Origin: Patescibacteria group bacterium
GTDB taxonomy: Bacteria; Patescibacteriota; Patescibacteriia; Patescibacteriales; VMTK01
Length of the DNA: 32,955 bases
Assembly (NCBI GenBank): GCA_034723335.1
Contig: JAYEOU010000141.1
Location: forward strand, 1-32,955
Direction: 5' to 3'
Translations under genes and position numbers: made by a program
Shown: one piece after another, positions 3,527-26,414 of the stretch
How positions within the stretch are numbered: the first letter of the stretch is position 1
Layout: each line of letters begins with the position of its first letter
The notes under the pieces: model-generated
Database searches by the model: none
What the model was told of the DNA's origin: nothing
The model's input: only the letters and a program-made list of their open reading frames with translations

Positions 3527-3858
3527 CGGTTGTTTTAAAAAATTCGCGCGGCAAATTAGCAACAAAAAAAAACGGCATTCACTAAATTGCATATTGTATA
3601 ATTTAGTAAATGCCGTTATATTGTGAAATAAGACACAATGCGAGAGGCTACATTCGCTCGCGCATTTTTTGTCGTATCCTACTTATATAAATACTACCAA
3701 TAATTCATACGTAAATCAACCCTAATAAATTACGCTAATATTAAATAAAAAAAATAAAATAATTTCAAATAATGCAATGATTATTAATAATTGTGGATAA
3801 CTTGCTATACTTTTGATAAAATTTTCTGCCTATCCCTATCGCAATAAAATAGGCCTAT

Positions 3859-4048
3859 TAGACTTGTCGCGTAATTATTTTTTACTGCTCCGCCAGCTGG
3901 CCCGCCAGTGGGCGGGCTGGCGGATTGGTCAAATTTTCCAAAAATTTTTTTAGCTTAGCTTAGGCTAAACCTCAAAAATTGTTTGAAAAATTATAACTCA
4001 TCCCGCAAAACTGCGGGACGTTACAAAACTAATTACGCGACAAGTCTA
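3859..4048 (+). mobile_element. MITE family 1, copy 1 (19-bp terminal inverted repeats tagacttgtcgcgtaatta)
   Basis: Termini are tagacttgtcgcgtaatta ... taattacgcgacaagtcta. Conserved core is ggtcaaattttccaaaaattttttt-agcttagcttaggctaaacctcaaaaattgtttgaaaaattataactca. No ORF. Carries an extra nested palindrome, cccgccagtgggcgggctgg. Confidence 0.85.
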
Positions 4049-4090
4049 TTGTATATTCTAAACGGTCCGCTGTCTTGCGGTTGGGCTGTT

Positions 4091-14711: not shown

Positions 14712-15008
14712 ATATTTATAGATATTAGTGGATATTAGCTCCTCTCCCGCTAAAGCGGGATCGGAGCGATATTTAATAGACTTGTCGCGTAATTAGTTTT
14801 GTAACGTCCCGCCCCTCACGAGGAGCGGGATGAGTTATAATTTTTCAAACAATTTTTGAGGTTTAGCCTAAGCTAAGCTGAAAAAATTTTTGGAAAATTT
14901 GACCAAAATTTGAAAATTGCAATAAAAAATAATTACGCGACAAGTCTAATATCAATAAATATCGCGCGAAGCGCAAATATCAACAAGTATCAATAAATAT
15001 CTATTATC
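14712..15008. repeat. 10-nt-phased AT-unit array upstream of ftsH, interrupted by a MITE
   Basis: Units atatttatag, atattagtgg, atattagctcc..(hairpin tcccgctaaagcggga)..gagcg, atatttaa | MITE | atcaataaat, atcgcgcgaagcgcaaat, atcaacaagt, atcaataaat, atctattatc. Confidence 0.6.
14777..14948 (-). mobile_element. MITE family 1, copy 2 (opposite orientation to copy 1)
   Basis: Same TIRs and core. Its internal modules differ: it carries the tcccgcccctcacgaggagcggga palindrome, and aaaatttgaaaatt in place of tccgccagctggcgga. Confidence 0.85.
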
Positions 15009-18958: not shown

Positions 18959-19801
18959 ATGCCTGAAGAAAACAAAACAATTCAAACAAAAAATAATCCT
19001 ACAGCGGATGGCGGCGGCAAGGCAGAAATGCCTGCCTCGCTTGCTCCAAAAGAAATGCCTGCTCCAAAAAAAGTAAAAACAACAAAAATCCCTGCGCCGG
19101 CAGAATCGAAGATAACAGAAGAAGCTGTTCCAACAGAGCAAAAAATAGCGGCAACGGAAACCCCATTGGATATAAAAAATTATCCGACAAGGCAAGCAGG
19201 ACCAAAGCAAAGTGTTGAATCAGAATCGCGGCCAGCCCGGGAAAAAACTAAACCAACAGAGGAAAAACAGCCAGAAGCTGCGGAAAAATTAATAGCGGAA
19301 AAGCCAGAGCCATTGGATGAAACAGAACAAGCTAAAACAGAAACAAAGTCCCTGCTTCCTGAATCAGCGCCAAGCCAAGCCTCAAAAACTCCTCCTACTG
19401 CTCCTGCGCCCATCGCCCAACAGCCAAAAACTCAGCCTGCTTCGCCGGCTAAAGGCGGACTTGCCGCGCCAAAACAAGACGGGCTTGCCGCGCCTACTCA
19501 AGCAAAGCCAGCGCAACCAGCCGTAAAGCCAACAGTGCCTTTTATAATTAAATTCCGCGACAAGCTAACCGAGCTAAGAAGGCAAGCTAACCAAAAACGA
19601 AGCCAAAAAGCAAAAGAAAACTTAGATAAAATTATGGAATATGCTTTCAAAACGCAAAAGGTTGTTAATGATGATGTGGAAAGATTAACAGGGGTAAAGA
19701 ATGCGCAGGCCAGAAATTATCTTCACAAATTAGTTAAACAGGAAAAATTAATCAAATTTGGCAAAAACATAAACACTTTTTATAAACCCGTTGTTCAATA
19801 A
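18959..19801 (+). CDS. Protein with an about 190-aa disordered P/A/K/E/T/Q-rich region and a C-terminal winged-helix-like domain
   Basis: The C-terminal VVNDDVERLTGVKNAQARNYLHKLVKQEKLIKFGKNINTFY looks like an HTH plus wing. An ATG start and a hairpin terminator follow the stop. Confidence 0.6.
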   Translation: MPEENKTIQTKNNPTADGGGKAEMPASLAPKEMPAPKKVKTTKIPAPAESKITEEAVPTEQKIAATETPLDIKNYPTRQAGPKQSVESESRPAREKTKPTEEKQPEAAEKLIAEKPEPLDETEQAKTETKSLLPESAPSQASKTPPTAPAPIAQQPKTQPASPAKGGLAAPKQDGLAAPTQAKPAQPAVKPTVPFIIKFRDKLTELRRQANQKRSQKAKENLDKIMEYAFKTQKVVNDDVERLTGVKNAQARNYLHKLVKQEKLIKFGKNINTFYKPVVQ

Positions 19802-19828
19802 TCGCTAATTTGCTCCAAATTAGCGATT
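19800..19828 (+). terminator. Hairpin terminator
   Basis: aatcgctaattt-gctcc-aaattagcgatt followed by atttta. Overlaps the stop codon of the preceding CDS. Confidence 0.7.
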
Positions 19829-19869
19829 ATTTTAATAAATTAAAGCAAGCGAATTTTTCGGCTTTGGGA

Positions 19870-19899
19870 TTGATTTTTGGTCGCGGAGTATGGTAAAAT
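19870..19899 (+). promoter_or_regulatory. Candidate sigma-70-like promoter upstream of the methylase/nuclease operon
   Basis: ttgatt (19870-19875), an 18-nt spacer, then tg-g-taaaat (-10 at 19894-19899, with an extended -10-like TG). Confidence 0.3.
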
Positions 19900-20025
19900 A
19901 TCTATAAGAAAAATAATCTTAATTTGTTATCTTACCTTATGCAAGCTGTAATATAAAATAAATTGTTATTTTGGTTGCCCGGCAAATTTCAAGTAGAATA
20001 ATTAAAAATTAAATTATAAAATTAC

Positions 20026-20160
20026 ATGGACACAATCACTGCTCAAATTAAATGTTCATCCGATTTTTGCGATGAGTTAAGGAAAGAAAGGTTGTTTTTT
20101 ATAACAATCGCAGAGGCATTAGGGATTGATCGCGAAGATGTTATAGAATTGGATGATTAA
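20026..20160 (+). CDS. Possible 44-aa ORF upstream of the operon (below the ORF-track length cut-off)
   Basis: My translation is MDTITAQIKCSSDFCDELRKERLFFITIAEALGIDREDVIELDD*. ITIAEALGIDREDV is HTH-like, but the ORF is very short. Confidence 0.2.
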   Translation: MDTITAQIKCSSDFCDELRKERLFFITIAEALGIDREDVIELDD

Positions 20161-20221
20161 ATAAATATTAATTCCAATCCAATTAGCATTTTTAATAAAT
20201 ACCGGGTTATGATTCAATTAT

Positions 20222-21502
20222 ATGACAAAAGCAGACACAATAAAGAAACGATTTTCAAAAATCAAGATTGACCCGTCTTGGGCTTTTGCTGATAAAACGC
20301 GGAAAGAAACATCATATCTTACACACGGCTACCATCGCTATCCGGCAAAATTTATTCCTCAAATTGTTTCTCGGTTATCTGAGAAATATACCAAAGAGGG
20401 TGATTTAATTGTTGATCCTTTTGGAGGATGCGGCACGACTTTAGCTGAAGCAAAGGTTATAGGCAGGCGTTCTGTCGGAGTAGATATAAATCCTGTTGCT
20501 ACTTTAATAACAAAGGCAAAAAAAACACCGATTAAACCAGCCGAATTAGAGGAGCAATTTCTAAAGATAAAAGAAAAAATTGATTTCTTTAATAAAAGTA
20601 CGAGAGTTAAAACGCCTGAACATGAAAGAATTGATTATTGGTTTAAGCAGGAAGAAAAAAGAAAACTTGCTTTTCTTTTTTCTGAAATTTCAAAGATAAA
20701 AAATAAAGATGCGCGAGATTTTTTTTATTGCGGTTTTTCTAATATTCTTAAAAATTGTTCAATTTGGCTTCAAAAAAGCAATAAACCGACAAGGGATTTT
20801 AGCAAAGAGCCGGCAGATCCATTTGCAGTTTTTGCGCGCCAGATTAGAGCAATGCTACGGGGCAATTTTGATTTTTATAATATTTTAAAAGAGCGAGGAT
20901 TTTTAAAAACTTCATGTAAAATTTATTGCGCTGACGCTAGAAAAATACCAACAAAAAATAATTCCGTAAGTTTAATTGTTACATCTCCGCCTTATGTTAC
21001 TTCTTATGAGTATGCTGATTTGCACCAGCTTTCTGCCTTATGGTTTAAATACGCAGATAATTTAAGCGATTTTAGAAAAAGGTTTATCGGCACTTCGCAT
21101 AACGGAGTAAAAGAGATAATATTAAATAGCGAGATTGCGGAAAATATAAAAAAAGATTTAGAGCAAAAAAATAAAAAATTAGCAAAAGAGGTTGCTATTT
21201 ATTTTAGCGAGATTAACCAGTGCTTTAAGGAAATGAAAAGAATGTTAAAAAAGAATGGCAGGGCTTGTATTGTGATTGGAAATACAAGTTTAAAGGGAGT
21301 GGAAATTTTAAACGCGGAAGTTTTTACTGAGCAGATGCAGAATTTAGGATTTAAGATTGATGATATTATTAAAAGAGAAATTCCGTCAAAAAATTTGCCG
21401 TCAACAAGAGACAAAAAAACAGGCAGATTTGCAAAATTAACTAATAAAAATAATATACAAGTTTATCCAACAGAGTATATTTTAATAATGAAAAAAATAT
21501 GA
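20222..21502 (+). CDS. DNA methyltransferase (N4-cytosine/N6-adenine family, motif order I...TRD...IV)
   Basis: YPAKFIPQIV (motif X-like), DLIVDPFGGCGTT (motif I), then IVTSPPYVTSYEY (motif IV, SPPY) about 190 aa downstream. Confidence 0.88.
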   Translation: MTKADTIKKRFSKIKIDPSWAFADKTRKETSYLTHGYHRYPAKFIPQIVSRLSEKYTKEGDLIVDPFGGCGTTLAEAKVIGRRSVGVDINPVATLITKAKKTPIKPAELEEQFLKIKEKIDFFNKSTRVKTPEHERIDYWFKQEEKRKLAFLFSEISKIKNKDARDFFYCGFSNILKNCSIWLQKSNKPTRDFSKEPADPFAVFARQIRAMLRGNFDFYNILKERGFLKTSCKIYCADARKIPTKNNSVSLIVTSPPYVTSYEYADLHQLSALWFKYADNLSDFRKRFIGTSHNGVKEIILNSEIAENIKKDLEQKNKKLAKEVAIYFSEINQCFKEMKRMLKKNGRACIVIGNTSLKGVEILNAEVFTEQMQNLGFKIDDIIKREIPSKNLPSTRDKKTGRFAKLTNKNNIQVYPTEYILIMKKI

Positions 21503-22248
21503 CCACCAAAAGAAAAATAATAAAAAAAGCGAAAAATTTTTTTACTATCAAGAATTTATTATTGATTTATGATAAGTATAAAGAAAAATATGGCGATGAT
21601 GCTTACAAATATTTAAGCAAAGTTTTTGAGGAAGCAAAACCGTTGCATAAAAAAAGTTTTTTGAAAAGTAAAACAGCTCAAGAAAAAATTCAAAAAGGAG
21701 GAACGCCTGACCACGAACAATCATGGAGAGCATTTAAAGGAAAAAATTTAGAAAAAATTATTATTTATATTTTAAAAGATGTGATCAATGGATTAGATTT
21801 AGAGGTTTTAGACGGCAATAAATTAGAAAAAACAAATGGCGCGAATTTATCAAAAGAATTAAGTTTAGTTAAAAGAAATCTTTTAGTTGATTATGGCGAG
21901 TTTGGCTCTCATCTTCCTGATGTTGATATTATTATTTATGATCCAAAAACAAGTAATGTCGTAGCTGTGCTTTCAAGCAAGGTAACTTTGCGAGAAAGAA
22001 TAGCGCAAACAGGATATTGGAAAATTAAACTTGCTTCTGACGAAGCGACAAAACATATTAAGGTTTATTTTGTAACGCCTGACGAAGATGGAACGCTGAC
22101 GATAAAAAGTCCAGCCAAAAAAGGTCGGGCAATTGTAGAAATAGACACAGACGGAAGTTATGTTTTAAGCAAGACGGATATTGAGGAAAGCGACAAAGTA
22201 AAAATGTTTGATAAATTTATTGAAGATTTAAAAAAGCTACTAATATGA
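21499..22248 (+). CDS. Putative PD-(D/E)xK restriction endonuclease
   Basis: PDVDIIIYD ... AVLSSKVTLRERIAQ is consistent with a PD...(S/E)xK core. The start overlaps the M1 stop (ATGA). It lies between two methyltransferases. Confidence 0.55.
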   Translation: MTTKRKIIKKAKNFFTIKNLLLIYDKYKEKYGDDAYKYLSKVFEEAKPLHKKSFLKSKTAQEKIQKGGTPDHEQSWRAFKGKNLEKIIIYILKDVINGLDLEVLDGNKLEKTNGANLSKELSLVKRNLLVDYGEFGSHLPDVDIIIYDPKTSNVVAVLSSKVTLRERIAQTGYWKIKLASDEATKHIKVYFVTPDEDGTLTIKSPAKKGRAIVEIDTDGSYVLSKTDIEESDKVKMFDKFIEDLKKLLI

Positions 22249-22448
22249 AAAATATTAAAACTACAATTTTTTCTAACGGTGTCATTTTACAAGCCGTTGA
22301 GTGTATAATAAATGGCAAGAAACAGTGGAGGTGGATTGTTAATAGTTTTGAATATGATAGTTTTTTGAATGGAAAATTAATCAATCCAGTGGAATATGGT
22401 ACAAAACAAGATAATTTAACCGAAAAATTTGAAAATGGATATAACTAA
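22245..22448 (+). CDS. 67-aa hypothetical protein, translationally coupled
   Basis: ATGA overlap with the upstream stop. No motif recognised. Confidence 0.45.
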   Translation: MKNIKTTIFSNGVILQAVECIINGKKQWRWIVNSFEYDSFLNGKLINPVEYGTKQDNLTEKFENGYN

Positions 22449-23112
22449 TATGCAAATAGAATCAACAACTCTTTGGGATTTTCCGAGGCAGAATTATGGC
22501 GATAAGTTGCACGGGAATAATAAATATAATGGCGTTACTCCTGCGTCTGTAATTTGGAATTTACTGCAACGATATACAAAAGAGGGCGATTTAGTAGTTG
22601 ACCCGATGTGTGGAAGCGGAACGACCATTGATGTCGCCAATGAATTAAACAGAAAAGTAATCGGTTATGATCTTAATATTGTAAGACCAGATGTTATAAA
22701 AAATGATTCTCGGAAAATTCCGCTTCAAGACAATAGCGTTGATTTTGTTTTTATTGATTCGCCTTATTCTGACAATATAAAATATTCTGGCAAGGAAAAA
22801 TGTATTGGTAAGATTTCTTGCGAGGACGAAAATTTTTATGACGAATTAGAAAAAACTGCCAGTGAGATTTACAGAATACTAAAACCAAACAAAGCAATGG
22901 GTTGGGTTATCGCCGACCAATGGATAAAAAGAAAATTTACACCAACAGGATTTCTCATCTGGCAAAGATTGGAAAAATATTTTGAACCAATGGATATAAT
23001 TTGCCTAACTCGTCATAACCAAACCTCAAACACTGGAGTTTGGCATAACAGAGCAAGGCAGTTTAATTTCTATTTGAGAGGCTTTAAATATTTATTTATA
23101 ATGAAAAAATAA
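22435..23112 (+). CDS. Small divergent DNA methyltransferase (motif I followed closely by an atypical motif IV, DSPY)
   Basis: LWDFPRQ, DLVVDPMCGSGTT and FVFIDSPYSD. The ORF-track start at 22429 is TTG, and ATGs lie at 22435 and 22450, so the start is uncertain. Confidence 0.8.
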   Translation: MDITNMQIESTTLWDFPRQNYGDKLHGNNKYNGVTPASVIWNLLQRYTKEGDLVVDPMCGSGTTIDVANELNRKVIGYDLNIVRPDVIKNDSRKIPLQDNSVDFVFIDSPYSDNIKYSGKEKCIGKISCEDENFYDELEKTASEIYRILKPNKAMGWVIADQWIKRKFTPTGFLIWQRLEKYFEPMDIICLTRHNQTSNTGVWHNRARQFNFYLRGFKYLFIMKK

Positions 23113-23133
23113 ATTTTTCTGTTTAGCGGTAAT

Positions 23134-23457
23134 ATGAAAATTAAAATTAAAAATGACAGGTATTATAAAAAAAGAAATGGGGCGGCCAAGATAATTAATA
23201 TTCAGTGCGCTAAATGCGGAAATTTCCTTTTTTCATATCAAAAAGACGGGCATGGAGAATTGATGCGGTGTTATCTAAACAGAATAATTAAGCCGGAAAA
23301 ATATTCGCGGATAAAAAATGAAGCGAACAATATAAAAGATATGGATAATTTAAAATGTGTTTGCGGAGAAATAATCGGAGTTCCGATGCAACATAAAGAT
23401 AAACGCTTGGCATTTCGGATGAAAAAAGGAAAATTTAAACGAAAATATAAAAAATAA
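23134..23457 (+). CDS. Basic zinc-ribbon-like protein, last gene of the operon
   Basis: CAKCG ... CVCG gives four Cys in CxxC...CxC spacing. Lys/Arg-rich N- and C-termini (KKGKFKRKYKK). Confidence 0.6.
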   Translation: MKIKIKNDRYYKKRNGAAKIINIQCAKCGNFLFSYQKDGHGELMRCYLNRIIKPEKYSRIKNEANNIKDMDNLKCVCGEIIGVPMQHKDKRLAFRMKKGKFKRKYKK

Positions 23458-23481
23458 TTTTTTGTAAATAAAAAAGCATGT

Positions 23482-23500
23482 TAATTACGCGACAAGTCTA
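23482..23500. mobile_element. Solo terminal inverted repeat of MITE family 1
   Basis: taattacgcgacaagtcta is a perfect right TIR, with no partner or core nearby. Confidence 0.7.
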
Positions 23501-23502
23501 AT

Positions 23503-23543
23503 AAAATAATCCCCTTGTTTGCACTAAATAAGGGGATTATTTT
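23503..23543 (+). terminator. Hairpin terminator after the operon
   Basis: aaaataatcccctt / aaggggattatttt, a 14-bp stem with a T-rich tail. Confidence 0.7.
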
Positions 23544-23559
23544 AATAAACAAAAAGCCA

Positions 23560-23625: not shown

Positions 23626-26406
23626 CTACGTCCAAGTAACACACGCCACCTTATCATCATCCTCCTTAAACCGCATTAATTTTACTCCCTGCGTATCCCG
23701 TCCTGTCTGGTTAACAGATTTAAACGGCAATCTGATTACCTGGCCCTTTTGTGAAATCACGATCAAGTCTTTATCTTTCATGGTTTCAGTATTAACCACA
23801 TAAGCATTTATCAGTTTACCTGTCTTGGCTGTTACTTTAGCTGTTTTTAGGCCTGAACCGCCCCTGCCCTGCACTTTGTATAATCCTAAGGCGGTGCGCT
23901 TGCCAAAGCCTTGTTCCATAATAGTTAAAACCTGATACTTTTTTACTCTGTCTTTATCTGTTTTTATAACCCCCATACCCACAATCGCGTCGTCTTTTTT
24001 AAGGCGGATCCCGCGAACCCCTGCCGCGCCACGGCCCATATCGCGAATATCGGCTTCTTTAAAGCGGATTGCCTGGCCATTGGCTGTAATTAACTGAATA
24101 TGGTTAGAACCCCGGGTTGGCTTGGCCCAAATTAGTTTATCGTCATCTTTTATTTTCACGGCAATTAGGCCGGAACGCCACACATTGCCAAAAGCTTCAA
24201 TTTTTACTTTCTTAACCAGCCCTTTTTCAGTGGCGAAGAATAAATATTTGCTTTTAGCAATCTTATCTAACGGCAAAATTGAAGTTACCTGCTCGCTTCC
24301 GGTAAGCTGAAGAAAATTAACAATTGCCTGGCCTTTGGCAGTTCTTGTTGTTTGGGGAACTTCATAAGCTTTTAGCTGAAAAACTCTGCCCCGGGTGGTA
24401 AAAAATAGAATGTCAGTATGGGCCATGGTAGTAAACATAAATTCAACCATATCTTCTTCTTTAGTGGACAAGCCTATTACGCCTTTGCCGCCCCGGCCCT
24501 GCACCTTAAAAGTGTCTGGCGGCAAGCGCTTAATATAGCCGTCGCGCGTCATCACTACTATTGTTTTCTCATTAGGCACTAAATCTTCAGCGCTAAAATC
24601 CTTAACTCCATGCGCCACGATTTGCGTTTTGCGCTCATCGCCATGCTTGTCTGCAAGCTCCTGCAATTCCTGTTTAATAATCCCTTTTATTTTAGCTTTA
24701 GACTCTAAAATACCTGTTAATTCTTTAATCAGCTCGCGCTTTTCTTTTAATTCATCTTTAATTTTTTTGCTTTCCAAATTAGCTAAAACCGCTAATTTCA
24801 TTTCCAAAATAGCAACGGACTGGCGCTCAGTAAGTTTGAATTTTTTTATTAAATTAATTTTCGCCTCTTCGCGGTCGCGGGAAGCTTTAATTATTTTTAT
24901 TACCGCGTCAATGTTATTAAGCGCTATTATCAGCCCTGCCAGGATATGCGCCCGATCTTTAGCTTTGTCTAAATCATATTGCGTGCGCCACTTAATAACT
25001 TCCTCGCGGTGCTTAATATATTCTTCAAGCGCCATTTTTAAAGTTAAAACTCTTGGCTGGATGCCGTCGACCAAAGCCAGCATATTAACATGAAAAGTTT
25101 CCTGCAATTGGGTATGCTTATATAAATAGTTCAGAACTTTTTTTGGATAAGCGTCTTTTTTTAAGTCTATCACTACGCGCACCCCGTCTTTGTCCGACTC
25201 GTCGCGCAAATCTTTAATGCCGTCTAATTTTTTATTTTTTACCAACTCGGCTATTTTTTCCACCAAAGCCGCTTTATTAATCTGATACGGCAATGCAGTC
25301 GCTATAATTTGAAATCCGCGATTTTTACTTTCAACAATTTCCGCTCTGCCCTGCATAACAATGCCTGCCTTGCCTGTTGCGTAAGTTTGCAAAATATCCT
25401 TATTGTTGTAAATTATGCCTCCGGTCGGAAAATCAGGCCCTTTGATAAATTGCATTAAATCTTCAACCACCGCGTCAGGATGATCAATTAAATGAATAAT
25501 GCCCTGGACCAGCTCTCTTAAATTATGAGGCGGAATATTAGTCGCCATGCCAACTGCTATTCCCATAGCGCCATTAAGCAATAAATTAGGCAGCTTGGCC
25601 GGCAAAACTTGCGGCTCTTTGTGCGAGCCGTCAAAATTTGGTATAAAATTAACAGTATTTTTTTCAATATCATAAAGCAACTGCTCGGAAATCGCTGACA
25701 TTTTAGCTTCAGTGTATCTCATGGCGGCCGCGCGATCACCGTCCATTGACCCAAAATTTCCCTGGCCCTTTACTAAAGTATAGCGCATGGCAAAATCCTG
25801 CGCCATTCTAACCATAGAGTCATAAATCGCTGTATCGCCGTGCGGATGATATTTTCCAATTACCTCGCCAACAACTGTGGCTGATTTTCTGAATTTTACC
25901 CCTGAACGCAAGCCAATGCTCCACATAGCGTATAAAATTCTCCTGTGCACCGGCTTTAAGCCGTCCCGCGCGTCAGGCAAGGCACGCGAAACAATCACGC
26001 TCATGGCATAATCTAAGTATGACTTGCGCATTTCTTTAATAATTGGCTGTGGCTCAACCAAGCCGTATTCGGTTTTTTGTTTGCCATTGATCGGCTGTTT
26101 GGCTCCGTTTTTTTCTTCTTGAACTGTTTGTTTATTTTTTGGTTTAGAGCTTACGGCTATATCATCTCGCGCTATAGCATCCTCTTTTTTTGTCCCGCCA
26201 TCTCGCGGAACTGCGGGGAATAAATCCTTTTTCGCTGATTTTTCTTTCTTAACCGGCTTAACAGCTTTTTTAATCACCTGCTTCTTGCCAATAATTTTTT
26301 TAACAGCAAGCCTTTCAACCGCTTTTTTAACCACGGCTTTCTTTACCGGCTTTTTGGCCGGTGTTTTTATTGGTTTTTTAGATTTGTTTATTTTTTTCTT
26401 TGCCAT
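23626..26406 (-). CDS. gyrA: DNA gyrase subunit A with an about 118-aa Lys-rich N-terminal extension
   Basis: [32 protein letters not shown], the active-site region AAMRYTE, a GyrA-box-like QGRGGKG and C-terminal beta-pinwheel repeats. The extension is [28 protein letters not shown].... Confidence 0.96.
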
Positions 26407-26414
26407 ACCTGTGT

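What the first reader, a model, noticed from the sequence alone, without database searches (positions are those of the whole stretch)
19870..23543. Repeat-free accessory block: five-gene coupled operon (MTase, PD-(D/E)xK nuclease, 67-aa ORF, divergent MTase, basic Zn-ribbon protein)
Five same-strand ORFs have overlapping or abutting junctions. ATGA overlaps occur at 21499-21502 and 22245-22248. The 67-aa ORF stop at 22446-22448 overlaps or abuts the M2 start. A 21-nt gap precedes the last ORF. Hairpin terminators bracket the block at 19800-19828 and 23503-23543.

M1 has motif I (DPFGGCGTT) far upstream of TSPPY. M2 is half that size and has motif I (DPMCGSGTT) followed within about 45 aa by DSPY. 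The middle ORF has a PD...SxK core.

Two methylases with one nuclease fits an asymmetric-site or DpnII-like Type II system. The 67-aa ORF and the 107-aa CxxC...CxC basic protein are not standard R-M components; neither looks like an HTH controller protein.

By eye, this about 3.6-kb block contains none of the heptamer, palindrome or MITE repeats that saturate every other intergenic region and several genes in the window. It ends at a solo MITE terminus. Together these suggest recent acquisition.
Basis: partly seen in the sequence, partly recalled or inferred. Interest (0 to 1): 0.65.

Follow-up and report, generated by a model that had tools for sequence, protein, structure and literature searches.

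The report
Mobile CCGG-type restriction cassette plus rider gene
The block is an ordinary, widely travelled restriction-modification cassette (two DNA methylases flanking a BsaWI-type nuclease); its 67-residue gene belongs to an undescribed small-protein family found at the end of many unrelated restriction systems, and the zinc protein is an unrelated neighbour.

Summary
In detail: the five same-strand ORFs, both ATGA overlaps, both hairpins and the solo MITE end are all real.

The core is M1 (20222-21502), R (21499-22248) and M2 (22450-23112). R matches Pfam RE_BsaWI (E 2.7e-33). It keeps the E/PD/K catalytic residues and the contiguous R-E-R motif that reads CCGG. The same M1-R-M2 cassette occurs in 61 of 80 genomes sampled, across CPR bacteria, DPANN archaea and many other phyla. 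Variants with M2-R only (10 loci) or M1-R only (5 loci) suggest either methylase alone protects.

The 67-aa and 107-aa proteins are absent from all 80 related cassettes.

The 67-aa gene is still not random. Its homologues (59-71% identical) sit directly downstream, same strand, of at least eight unrelated Type II R-M systems. It occupies the R-M2 spacer, which carries inserted cargo in 26 of 62 cassettes.

The 107-aa protein is probably a Yippee/Mis18-like beta-tent zinc domain. Its relatives neighbour nucleotide-metabolism genes, not R-M.

Low GC supports acquisition; repeat-freeness does not single out this block.

Verdict: a known kind of system with one unannotated accessory family worth a follow-up.

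The parts
19797..19831 (+). Hairpin terminator of the upstream 280-aa gene. It marks the left edge of the low-GC block, and its 3' arm and tail carry GATTATTTTAATAAA (19825-19839).
   Evidence: 16-bp perfect stem with a 3-nt loop (I16). dG -18.2, z -7.9. The stop codon of the 280-aa ORF lies at 19799-19801.
19832..20221 (+). AT-rich leader (about 27.7% GC) with promoter-like sites at 19870-19899 and 19975-20002 and an unsupported 44-aa ORF at 20026-20160. It is not conserved in related cassettes.
   Evidence: Promoter scan (the number of sites is not above shuffle expectation). GC. No tblastn or blastn homology in 80 loci. No Rfam match.
20222..21502 (+). M1: amino-DNA methyltransferase, 426 aa. 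Motif I (DPFGGCGTT) is followed by an insert of about 190 aa and then SPPY (alpha-like order). SPPY suggests N4-cytosine chemistry.
   Evidence: Pfam N6_N4_Mtase E 1e-20. PADLOC MTase_II E 1.2e-63. Present upstream of R in 66 of 80 loci. SPPY kept in 60/64.
21499..22248 (+). R: BsaWI/CCGG-family PD-(D/E)xK Type II restriction endonuclease, 249 aa. Its start overlaps the M1 stop (ATGA).
   Evidence: Pfam RE_BsaWI E 2.7e-33, 114.6 bits against a cut-off of 26.2. 4025 homologues. E85, PDVD140-143, SSK159-161 and RER165-167 kept in 79-80 of 80 loci. Motif roles are taken from PMC4652773.
22245..22448 (+). s67: 67-aa accessory gene inserted in the R-M2 spacer, with an ATGA overlap with R. It belongs to an unannotated small-protein family found at the 3' end of many unrelated Type II R-M operons.
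   Evidence: 11 homologues at 58-63% identity. 32 metagenome loci. 169 clusters by profile search. Codon-position differences of 0.26/0.18/0.45. Neighbourhoods. Absent from 80 related cassettes.
22450..23112 (+). M2: compact amino-DNA methyltransferase, 220 aa. Motif I (DPMCGSGTT) is followed about 45 aa later by DSPY (gamma-like order). It is the second methylase of the cassette.
   Evidence: Pfam N6_N4_Mtase E 1.3e-23. PADLOC MTase_II. 62-91% identical copies next to R in 72 of 80 loci. DSPY kept in 71/72. Its 90%-identity cluster has 206 members. The start is fixed by homologues.
23134..23457 (+). Zn107: basic (pI 10.1) zinc-binding protein, probably a Yippee/Mis18-like beta-tent fold. It is a neighbour inside the same low-GC stretch but not a component of the R-M cassette.
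   Evidence: 42 homologues, none in 80 cassettes. Relatives sit beside GTP cyclohydrolase II, nucleotide kinases and nucleoside/nucleotide enzymes. AF2 pLDDT 91. Foldseek top hits are MDA5 CTD and Mis18. Sub-threshold Pfam beta-tent hits.
23461..23503 (+). Solo right end of the window's MITE family (core 23482-23500), lying 3 nt after the Zn107 stop codon.
   Evidence: Exact 19-mer match. The other 8 copies pair into 4 elements. No left end lies near 19800-20200 at up to 3 mismatches.
23496..23550 (+). Hairpin terminator closing the plus-strand block. Its 3' arm and tail carry the second copy of GATTATTTTAATAAA (23535-23549).
   Evidence: dG -24.2, z -7.7. Inverted repeat I2 and direct repeat D16. 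The gyrA terminator lies on the other strand at 23595-23571.

Best explanation
The block is a horizontally acquired Type IIP restriction-modification cassette of the BsaWI/CCGG family, with gene order M1-R-M2.

How it works:
- R is a PD-(D/E)xK nuclease. It reads a CCGG-core palindrome through its contiguous R-E-R motif and cuts unmethylated copies. The exact flanking bases are not determined.
- M1 (SPPY, probably N4-cytosine) and M2 (DSPY) each methylate that site. Either alone is sufficient protection; this is inferred from natural M2-R and M1-R cassettes.
- The genes are translationally coupled and read from a promoter in the AT-rich leader (inferred).

The 67-aa gene:
- It is not part of the ancestral cassette. 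It is a separate coding module of about 195 nt lodged in the R-M2 spacer, a spot that holds varied cargo in about 40% of related cassettes.
- It belongs to a conserved, unannotated small-protein family. Members ride as the last or near-last co-directional gene of many unrelated Type II R-M operons.
- Its action therefore cannot depend on a particular recognition sequence, nuclease fold or methylation chemistry.
- My preferred reading (about 55%) is a generic, co-expressed helper of R-M operons. It would act on something common to them, for example tempering self-restriction damage during establishment. The alternative is a hitch-hiker that exploits these mobile, hard-to-lose operons.

The 107-aa protein is an unrelated beta-tent-like zinc protein. 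It shares the low-GC island but not the R-M function.

The confidence given applies to the identity and composition of the cassette and to the non-membership of the two small genes, not to the biochemical role of s67.
For: Nuclease identity:
- Pfam RE_BsaWI, E 2.7e-33.
- E85, PD141, K161 and R165-E166-R167 at K+4, the same spacing as K165 / R169-D170-R171 of BsaWI (PMC4652773).

Cassette conservation and mobility:
- 396 tblastn-confirmed stretches in GTDB species genomes; 80 loci were read, from CPR, DPANN, Bacteroidota, Nitrospirota, Omnitrophota and others.
- Architectures: M1-R-M2 61, M2-R 10, M1-R 5.
- No synteny outside the cassette.
- GC is 27-34% against 37-44% for flanking genes.

s67:
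- It is a real gene. The third codon position varies most, and the motifs GxKQWRW and EY are invariant.
- It is absent from 80 cassettes, including the closest one, L003, whose R is 93% identical.
- Homologues lie directly downstream of ThaI+MTase, a SacI-like R, NotI, a second BsaWI-like R, PADLOC REase_II models 03491 and 03534, Eco57I-type, N6_N4 and m5C methylases.
- In L098 it again sits between a BsaWI-family R (only 33% identical) and an M2 that is 89% identical.

Cargo hotspot:
- The R-M2 spacer is at most 70 nt in 36/62 cassettes, 263-311 nt in 12/62 and 575-2311 nt in 14/62.
- Cargo includes an OLD-family ATPase-TOPRIM, Z1+ResIII, Schlafen/AlbA_2 and MBL genes.

Zn107.
Against: - The recognition site is not measured.
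- CCGG and WCCGGW are not depleted in the window: 112 observed against 117 expected. This fits recent arrival but gives no positive support.
- The acidic residue that BsaWI and AgeI place at K+10 (D175/D178) is T171 here. The catalytic set is therefore only partly matched.
- Sequence search of the PDB finds no BsaWI or AgeI hit. The link rests on the Pfam profile.
- The function of s67 is wholly inferred. Its AF2 model is poor (pLDDT 58) and Foldseek finds nothing significant.
- A few s67 homologues sit outside R-M contexts: L100, L107 and phage locus L132.
- Zn107 shares the low GC. It also lies inside the pair of 15-nt direct repeats, so it may have arrived together with the cassette.
Confidence: 0.8

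Rival explanations
1. All five genes form one functional, non-standard R-M or defence system, in which the 67-aa and Zn proteins are obligatory subunits or regulators.
For: - Junctions are tight: ATGA overlaps, a 1-nt gap and a 21-nt gap.
- GC is uniformly low across all five genes.
- A hairpin closes each end, and both end in the same 15-mer.
Against: - s67 and Zn107 are absent from 80 of 80 homologous cassettes. Most of these have only 10-66 nt between R and M2, and unrelated genes follow M2.
- Zn107 relatives have nucleotide-metabolism neighbours in 4 of 4 contexts read.
- R keeps all its conserved motifs without these partners.
Confidence: 0.07
2. s67 is a purely selfish passenger with no role in R-M. 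It is a small gene that accumulates at the 3' end of mobile, addictive operons because that position gives it free expression and linkage. R-M dominates its neighbours only because R-M dominates the mobile gene pool of CPR bacteria.
For: - It sits in a spacer that also collects unrelated cargo in 26/62 cassettes.
- Homology stops at the ORF ends, so it moves as a bare gene.
- Some copies are orphan or in housekeeping or phage contexts: L107, L100, L132.
- No fusion to R-M domains appears among 169 clusters.
Against: - It is under strong purifying selection and about 60% identical across contexts whose R-M partners are unrelated.
- It is always co-directional and within 1-14 nt of, or overlapping, an R or M gene in at least 17 distinct contexts.
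- Partners cover three methylase classes and at least 6 nuclease families.
- That is tighter than simple island co-residence.
Confidence: 0.35
3. The two methylases serve an asymmetric or hemi-specific site, one per strand, as in Type IIS and other asymmetric-site systems.
For: There are two methylases of different architecture, and they share only the AdoMet-binding region (D1).
Against: - R belongs to the CCGG family, whose characterised members recognise palindromes and cleave as dimers or higher-order oligomers (PMC4652773, PMC5389614).
- 10 loci have M2-R only and 5 have M1-R only. That would be lethal if each methylase protected only one strand.
Confidence: 0.05

Closest known systems
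[quoted passage not shown]
   Same: - The Pfam RE_BsaWI domain covers residues 119-223.
- Catalytic residues E...PD...K are present.
- A contiguous R-(D/E)-R sits four residues after the catalytic lysine.
- Size is about 235-250 aa with an N-terminal helical part.
- A DNA methylase lies adjacent.
   Different: - Sequence is too far for phmmer or a family profile to reach any PDB chain.
- The K+10 acidic residue (D175 in BsaWI, D178 in AgeI) is threonine here.
- PDVD has a second invariant Asp instead.
- Flanking-base specificity is unknown.
- This subfamily is flanked by two amino-methylases.
Two-methylase, one-nuclease Type IIP systems for palindromic sites (DpnII, MboI; from general knowledge)
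   Same: One nuclease with two methylases in one operon, with the methylases apparently redundant for protection.
   Different: - Here the two enzymes differ in motif order (alpha-like against gamma-like) and probably in target base (SPPY against DSPY).
- No evidence exists for a single-strand-specific methylase like DpnA.
- The natural single-methylase variants are an unusual direct hint of redundancy.
Controller (C) proteins of Type II R-M systems
   Same: Small proteins (about 70-100 aa) encoded inside R-M operons and shared among unrelated R-M systems.
   Different: - C proteins are HTH_3 DNA binders, usually upstream of R, with a conserved operator (C-box).
- s67 has no HTH match and is predicted to be mainly beta-strand.
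- s67 is near-neutral rather than basic.
- It lies downstream, and no conserved non-coding DNA travels with it.
Defence islands and cargo hotspots (embedding of defence genes next to R-M; from general knowledge)
   Same: The R-M2 spacer carries OLD-family, Z1-helicase, Schlafen-like and other genes in related cassettes.
   Different: The hotspot is a single intergenic spacer of 10-66 nt inside an R-M operon, not a chromosomal island bounded by core genes.
Yippee/Mis18, RIG-I-like receptor C-terminal domain and other beta-tent zinc domains (comparison for Zn107)
   Same: - Two cysteine pairs lie about 47-50 residues apart.
- The fold is predicted to be all-beta.
- The best Foldseek and sub-threshold Pfam hits all belong to this fold.
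   Different: - All matches are below significance: Foldseek E 0.03-0.2, TM about 0.45.
- The second pair in the window copy is CxC, not CxxC.
- It is prokaryotic and stand-alone, with nucleotide-metabolism neighbours.

Membership tests
BsaWI/CCGG-family Type II restriction endonuclease | Significant match to the family profile (Pfam PF18643 RE_BsaWI) | tested here: met
   E 2.7e-33, 114.6 bits against a cut-off of 26.2, covering model positions 2-105 of 105. All 120 listed homologues carry PF18643.
BsaWI/CCGG-family Type II restriction endonuclease | Permuted PD...K active site with an upstream Glu (E92, D145, K165 in BsaWI) | tested here: met
   E85, P140-D141 and K161 are invariant in A1 and in 79-80 of 80 loci. 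The assignment rests on motif order and spacing, not on structural superposition.
BsaWI/CCGG-family Type II restriction endonuclease | Second acidic residue on the helix after the Lys (D175 in BsaWI, D178 in AgeI at K+10; E at K+12/13 in NgoMIV-type enzymes) | tested here: not met
   K+10 is T171, and K+12/13 are Y173/W174. An invariant D143 (in PDVD) may substitute, but this is untested.
BsaWI/CCGG-family Type II restriction endonuclease | R-(D/E)-R motif that reads CCGG, contiguous as in BsaWI | tested here: met
   R165-E166-R167 sits 4 residues after K161 and is present in 80/80 loci. Compare R169-D170-R171 after K165 in BsaWI (PMC4652773).
BsaWI/CCGG-family Type II restriction endonuclease | Cleavage at a CCGG-core palindrome leaving a 4-nt 5' overhang | not testable with these tools
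   This needs an enzyme assay or a methylome. Site counts in the window show no avoidance.
Type II restriction-modification system | Nuclease gene adjacent to and co-conserved with a DNA methyltransferase gene | tested here: met
   78 of 80 loci have M1 and/or M2 beside R on the same strand.
Asymmetric-site (strand-specific) two-methylase system | Both methylases are required, one for each strand of a non-palindromic site | tested here: not met
   10 loci have M2-R only and 5 have M1-R only. R belongs to a palindrome-cutting family (PMC4652773). This is an inference, not a biochemical test.
Controller (C) protein | Helix-turn-helix (HTH_3/Xre-type) DNA-binding domain | tested here: not met
   s67 and Zn107 have no HTH hit in Pfam, NCBIfam, PADLOC or PHROGs. 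The s67 model is strand-rich.
Controller (C) protein | Gene upstream of R, with a conserved operator that travels with it | tested here: not met
   s67 lies downstream of R or M in every context. Homology ends at the ORF borders.
Yippee/Mis18-type beta-tent zinc domain (Zn107) | Two Cys pairs about 50 residues apart that bind one zinc | tested here: met
   C25xxC28 and C75xC77 in the window protein; the second pair is CxxC in most homologues. C25, C28, C75 and C77 are invariant in A3.
Yippee/Mis18-type beta-tent zinc domain (Zn107) | Significant sequence or fold match | tested here: inconclusive
   - AF2 pLDDT 91.
- Foldseek: MDA5 CTD E 0.033; Mis18 probability 0.85, TM 0.45.
- Sub-threshold Pfam hits: Yippee-Mis18 in 7/23 members, At4g08330 beta-tent in 6/23, RIG-I_C-RD in 4/23.

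The most novel reading that the evidence does not exclude
s67 may define a new class of sequence-independent R-M companion protein. This would be a roughly 65-aa factor that Type II R-M operons of any specificity recruit as their last gene. It would act on a shared step, for example buffering self-restriction during establishment or loss, handling restriction-generated DNA ends, or countering phage anti-restriction. On this reading, the spacer inside the BsaWI-type cassette is a dedicated docking site for such accessories and for other defence genes.
Probability: 0.3. Interest if true: 0.65.

Novelty: new variant of a known kind. Interest (0 to 1): 0.42.

Why it matters
The cassette itself adds little; it is one more copy of a very common, already annotated BsaWI-family R-M unit. 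Three things are worth keeping.

1. There is natural-variation evidence that the two flanking methylases are each sufficient. This explains a widespread two-methylase layout without invoking an asymmetric site.

2. One short spacer inside this R-M operon repeatedly captures other genes, including recognised defence domains. This makes it a cheap place to look for new defence or regulatory genes in CPR and DPANN genomes.

3. A conserved, unannotated 65-aa family follows unrelated R-M systems. Apart from C proteins and Vsr, few generic R-M accessories are known. A sequence-independent one would bear on how R-M systems establish themselves and avoid killing their host.

Tried and rejected
- PDB sequence searches with R alone and with its family profile found nothing relevant. 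Family assignment therefore rests on Pfam.
- The AF2 model of s67 from a 12-sequence alignment was poor (pLDDT 58). Foldseek against the PDB gave no hit better than E 0.34; the top hit, the immunity protein EsaG, is not significant. I make no fold claim for s67. My recalled resemblance to Sso7d/SH3-like barrels is unsupported.
- I considered a DNA-mimic or anti-restriction reading for s67. The wider family is acidic (median pI 4.3), but the R-M-linked clade ranges from pI 4.2 to 9.7, so I did not adopt it.
- s67 and two distant relatives have no match in cultured phages or plasmids. Only 3 loci turned up in IMG/VR.
- A search for fusions found that the longer members among 169 clusters carry no informative Pfam domain.
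- I looked for a second MITE end to make the block a composite element. None exists at up to 3 mismatches.
- CCGG-site avoidance as a clue to specificity showed no signal.
- Rfam gave nothing for the leader or the junctions.
- The 44-aa leader ORF as a possible controller has no homologue in any cassette.
- Coordinates printed are one base too low. This was found and corrected.

Full report
**1. Observation**

- M1: 20222-21502.
- R: 21499-22248.
- 67-aa ORF (s67): 22245-22448.
- M2: the mechanical ORF starts at a TTG at 22429.
- 107-aa ORF (Zn107): 23134-23457.

Both ATGA overlaps are there. Homologues of M2 begin MQIESTT or MEIESTT, so M2 really starts at the ATG at 22450, one base after the s67 stop.

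Both hairpins are real and much more stable than shuffled sequence (dG -18.2, z -7.9; dG -24.2, z -7.7). The first belongs to the upstream 280-aa gene, whose stop codon lies inside the stem.

The MITE terminus at 23482-23500 is the only unpaired copy of nine in the window.

The repeat-free argument is weaker than it looked. No 18-mer of the block recurs elsewhere, but neither does any from 15246 onward, which is 4.6 kb of ordinary genes upstream.

The compositional break is solid. The leader and all five ORFs are 27-34% GC, against 37-44% for the flanking genes.

**2. The core is a standard, highly mobile R-M cassette**

R matches Pfam RE_BsaWI at E 2.7e-33. M1 and M2 are N6_N4 amino-methyltransferases and hit Type II methylase models in PADLOC.

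R has 4025 homologues in the protein collection. Many are annotated as BsaWI-family enzymes from Patescibacteria.

A scan of one genome per GTDB species gave 396 tblastn-confirmed stretches. I read 80 loci, from CPR bacteria, DPANN and other archaea, Bacteroidota, Nitrospirota, Omnitrophota, Ignavibacteria and others. Their R proteins are 64-93% identical to the window's.

tblastn with the window proteins gave these gene orders:

| Gene order | Loci |
|---|---|
| M1-R-M2 | 61 |
| M2-R | 10 |
| M1-R | 5 |
| R alone | 2 |
| Other, cut by contig ends | 2 |

Nucleotide homology to the window is confined to 20217-22260 and 22441-23113. It does not extend into the leader, s67 or Zn107. Nothing outside the cassette is syntenic.

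The conserved, transferable unit is therefore M1-R-M2.

**3. How the cassette works**

BsaWI cuts W/CCGGW. Its active site is E92, D145, K165 and D175, and it reads CCGG with a contiguous R169-D170-R171 (PMC4652773). AgeI (A/CCGGT) is its closest relative (PMC5389614).

The window enzyme has E85, P140-D141-V-D143, S159-S-K161 and R165-E166-R167. The spacing from K to R-E-R is the same as in BsaWI. These residues are kept in 79-80 of 80 loci.

One feature does not match. The K+10 acidic residue is threonine; the invariant D143 may replace it.

I infer that R cuts a CCGG-core palindrome. The flanking bases are unknown, and the window shows no CCGG avoidance (112 observed against 117 expected).

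M1 carries SPPY (kept in 60/64), which is typical of N4-cytosine enzymes. M2 carries DSPY (kept in 71/72). In the best PDB alignment, DSPY lines up with the SPPY of an N4-cytosine methylase.

Cassettes with only M2 or only M1 exist. Each methylase is therefore probably sufficient to protect against R. This argues against the asymmetric-site idea and for a DpnII/MboI-like redundancy.

**4. The 67-aa gene**

s67 is absent from all 80 cassettes, including L003, whose R is 93% identical and whose R-M2 spacer is 66 nt.

It is nevertheless a real gene.
- It has 11 protein homologues, 58-63% identical across the alignment. Invariant residues include I8, F9, S10, G12, C20, G24, K26-Q27-W28-R29-W30, and E50-Y51.
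- It has 32 metagenome loci.
- Differences concentrate at third codon positions: 0.26, 0.18 and 0.45 per site for positions 1, 2 and 3.

Its neighbourhoods are the notable result. In at least 17 distinct contexts it lies on the same strand, overlapping or within 1-14 nt, directly after R-M genes of unrelated families:
- ThaI nuclease plus an N6_N4 methylase (L083-85, L102, L109).
- A SacI-like nuclease after a HEAT-fused methylase (L088-90, L122).
- NotI (L127/128).
- PADLOC REase_II model 03491 (L116, L126).
- PADLOC REase_II model 03534 (L106, L108, L120, L121).
- An Eco57I/TaqI-type methylase plus a 228-aa protein (L105).
- An N6_N4 methylase plus a 419-aa protein (L113-117).
- A 319-aa methylase (L086).
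- The C-terminus of an m5C methylase (L112).
- The C-terminus of an amino-methylase (L110).

In L098 it again lies between a BsaWI-family nuclease and M2. That nuclease is only 33% identical to the window's, while M2 is 89% identical and s67 is 71% identical.

A few copies are orphan (L107), follow a membrane protein (L100), or lie among small phage ORFs (L132).

Homology between contexts stops at the ORF ends. No operator or element travels with it.

A profile search of 1.84 billion representative proteins finds 169 clusters. Nearly all are stand-alone proteins of 50-90 aa. The consensus is IYTTGAFLxP...WxWVV..FEDDSYxDG..NPxE.A..E.LL.

No library annotates the family. Cultured phages and plasmids lack it.

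Structure prediction was poor, and no fold match is significant.

s67 is therefore a generic 3' companion of Type II R-M operons. Its role cannot depend on a particular site, nuclease fold or methylation chemistry. Whether it helps R-M or merely hitch-hikes cannot be decided here. I lean to the helper reading, at about 55:35.

**5. The spacer is a cargo hotspot**

Among 62 cassettes with R followed by M2, the spacer lengths are:

| Spacer length | Cassettes |
|---|---|
| 10-66 nt | 36 |
| 263-311 nt | 12 |
| 575-2311 nt | 14 |

The mid-sized spacers hold one of two recurrent small-ORF families, of about 75-100 aa, with no Pfam match. One family starts MKYLLFISFN.GLKHNAVYEN. The other contains QIKLAW.KV...RELLL..QV.LGKI.

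The long spacers hold varied genes:
- an OLD-family AAA_15-TOPRIM protein (L043);
- a Z1-ResIII helicase (L068);
- a Schlafen/AlbA_2 protein (L012);
- a metallo-beta-lactamase-fold protein with a membrane partner (L008, L023);
- an HNH-like protein (L035);
- others.

s67 occupies this same slot in the window.

**6. The 107-aa protein**

Zn107 has 42 homologues at 38-57% identity. Invariant features include C25, C28, C75, C77, YQKDG, and RLAFR. None occurs in any of the 80 cassettes.

Four neighbourhoods of relatives all involve nucleotide metabolism.
- GTP cyclohydrolase II is adjacent in three of them.
- These three also carry cytidylate or guanylate kinase, and one carries OMP decarboxylase.
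- The fourth has nucleoside 2-deoxyribosyltransferase, NTPase_I-T, Ham1-like ITPase and NUDIX.

AF2 gives a confident all-beta model (pLDDT 91). The best Foldseek hits are the MDA5 C-terminal domain and Mis18 Yippee domains, at E 0.03-0.2 and TM about 0.45. Sub-threshold Pfam hits across the family are Yippee-Mis18, At4g08330 beta-tent and RIG-I C-RD.

It is probably a beta-tent zinc domain rather than a zinc ribbon, and it is not an R-M component.

It does share the low GC. It also lies, with the MITE end, between the two copies of GATTATTTTAATAAA. It may therefore have arrived in the same event.

**7. Verdict**

Its own refutation criterion is met: the nuclease belongs to a characterised family, and the small proteins are absent from homologous cassettes.

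The block is a known kind of system. What lifts it slightly above ordinary is the s67 family's repeated association with unrelated R-M operons, together with the cargo-collecting spacer. Both are leads from comparative data, and neither has a demonstrated mechanism.

Noticed in passing
L003-L082, the spacer between R and M2 (e.g. L043:6157-7935, L068:6686-8548, L012:846-1403, L008:914-1819): In 26 of 62 related cassettes the R-M2 spacer holds inserted genes. These include an OLD-family AAA_15-TOPRIM protein, a Z1+ResIII helicase, a Schlafen/AlbA_2 protein and an MBL-fold protein with a membrane partner. It behaves as a cargo hotspot inside an R-M operon.
   Followed up: partly
L019, L056, L058, L061, L067 (e.g. 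L058:6669-6944) and L018, L037, L040, L055, L065 (e.g. L037:6233-6463): Two further recurrent small-ORF families, of about 75-100 aa and with no Pfam match, occupy the same R-M2 slot as s67 in other cassettes. They may be functional analogues of s67.
   Followed up: partly
L092:5001-7554, L094:4036-6029, L096:5001-6857, L091:2602-5495: Relatives of the 107-aa zinc protein sit in conserved clusters. Partners are GTP cyclohydrolase II, cytidylate or guanylate kinase, OMP decarboxylase, nucleoside 2-deoxyribosyltransferase, NTPase_I-T and Ham1-like ITPase. This looks like an uncharacterised nucleotide-metabolism or nucleotide-sanitising module.
   Followed up: partly
window 19825-19839 and 23535-23549: The same 15-mer, GATTATTTTAATAAA, forms the 3' arm and T-tail of both bracketing hairpins. 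It could mark the junctions of a single 3.7-kb insertion (leader, R-M cassette, Zn107 and MITE end), or it could be convergent terminator design.
   Followed up: partly
window, whole: The four-base palindromes TCGA (3 observed, 38.7 expected), CTAG (9, 39.8), ACGT (11, 31.7) and GTAC (11, 25.2) are strongly depleted, while CCGG is not. The host lineage has probably lived long with other R-M specificities, such as a TaqI-like one.
   Followed up: no
window 26388-26641: A perfect 10-nt tandem array, TATATCAATG repeated about 13 times with further degenerate copies, lies immediately upstream of the gyrA start (26406, minus strand). It is iteron-like and might be regulatory or origin-related.
   Followed up: no
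window 3856-4056, 14769-14952, 28465-28661, 30111-30312: There are four copies of a MITE of roughly 185-200 nt with termini TAGACTTGTCGCGTAATTA...TAATTACGCGACAAGTCTA. The pair at 28470-28661 and 30116-30307 is inverted (96% complementary) around 1.45 kb that includes the tRNA-Glu gene at 28785-28857.
   Followed up: no
Their function is unknown.
   Followed up: no
window 18959-19801: The upstream 280-aa protein has a long Pro/Ala/Lys/Glu-rich low-complexity N-terminal part and a C-terminal winged-helix-like end. Its hits are weak (FaeA, DUF977, and a PHROG Ren-like exclusion protein at E 0.0013). Its GC (43%) is host-like, so it is not part of the island.
   Followed up: no
L098:180-1406: A second BsaWI-family nuclease subfamily, only 33% identical to the window R, is paired with an M2 that is 89% identical and with an s67 homologue. 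Nucleases appear to be exchanged while s67 and M2 stay linked.
   Followed up: partly
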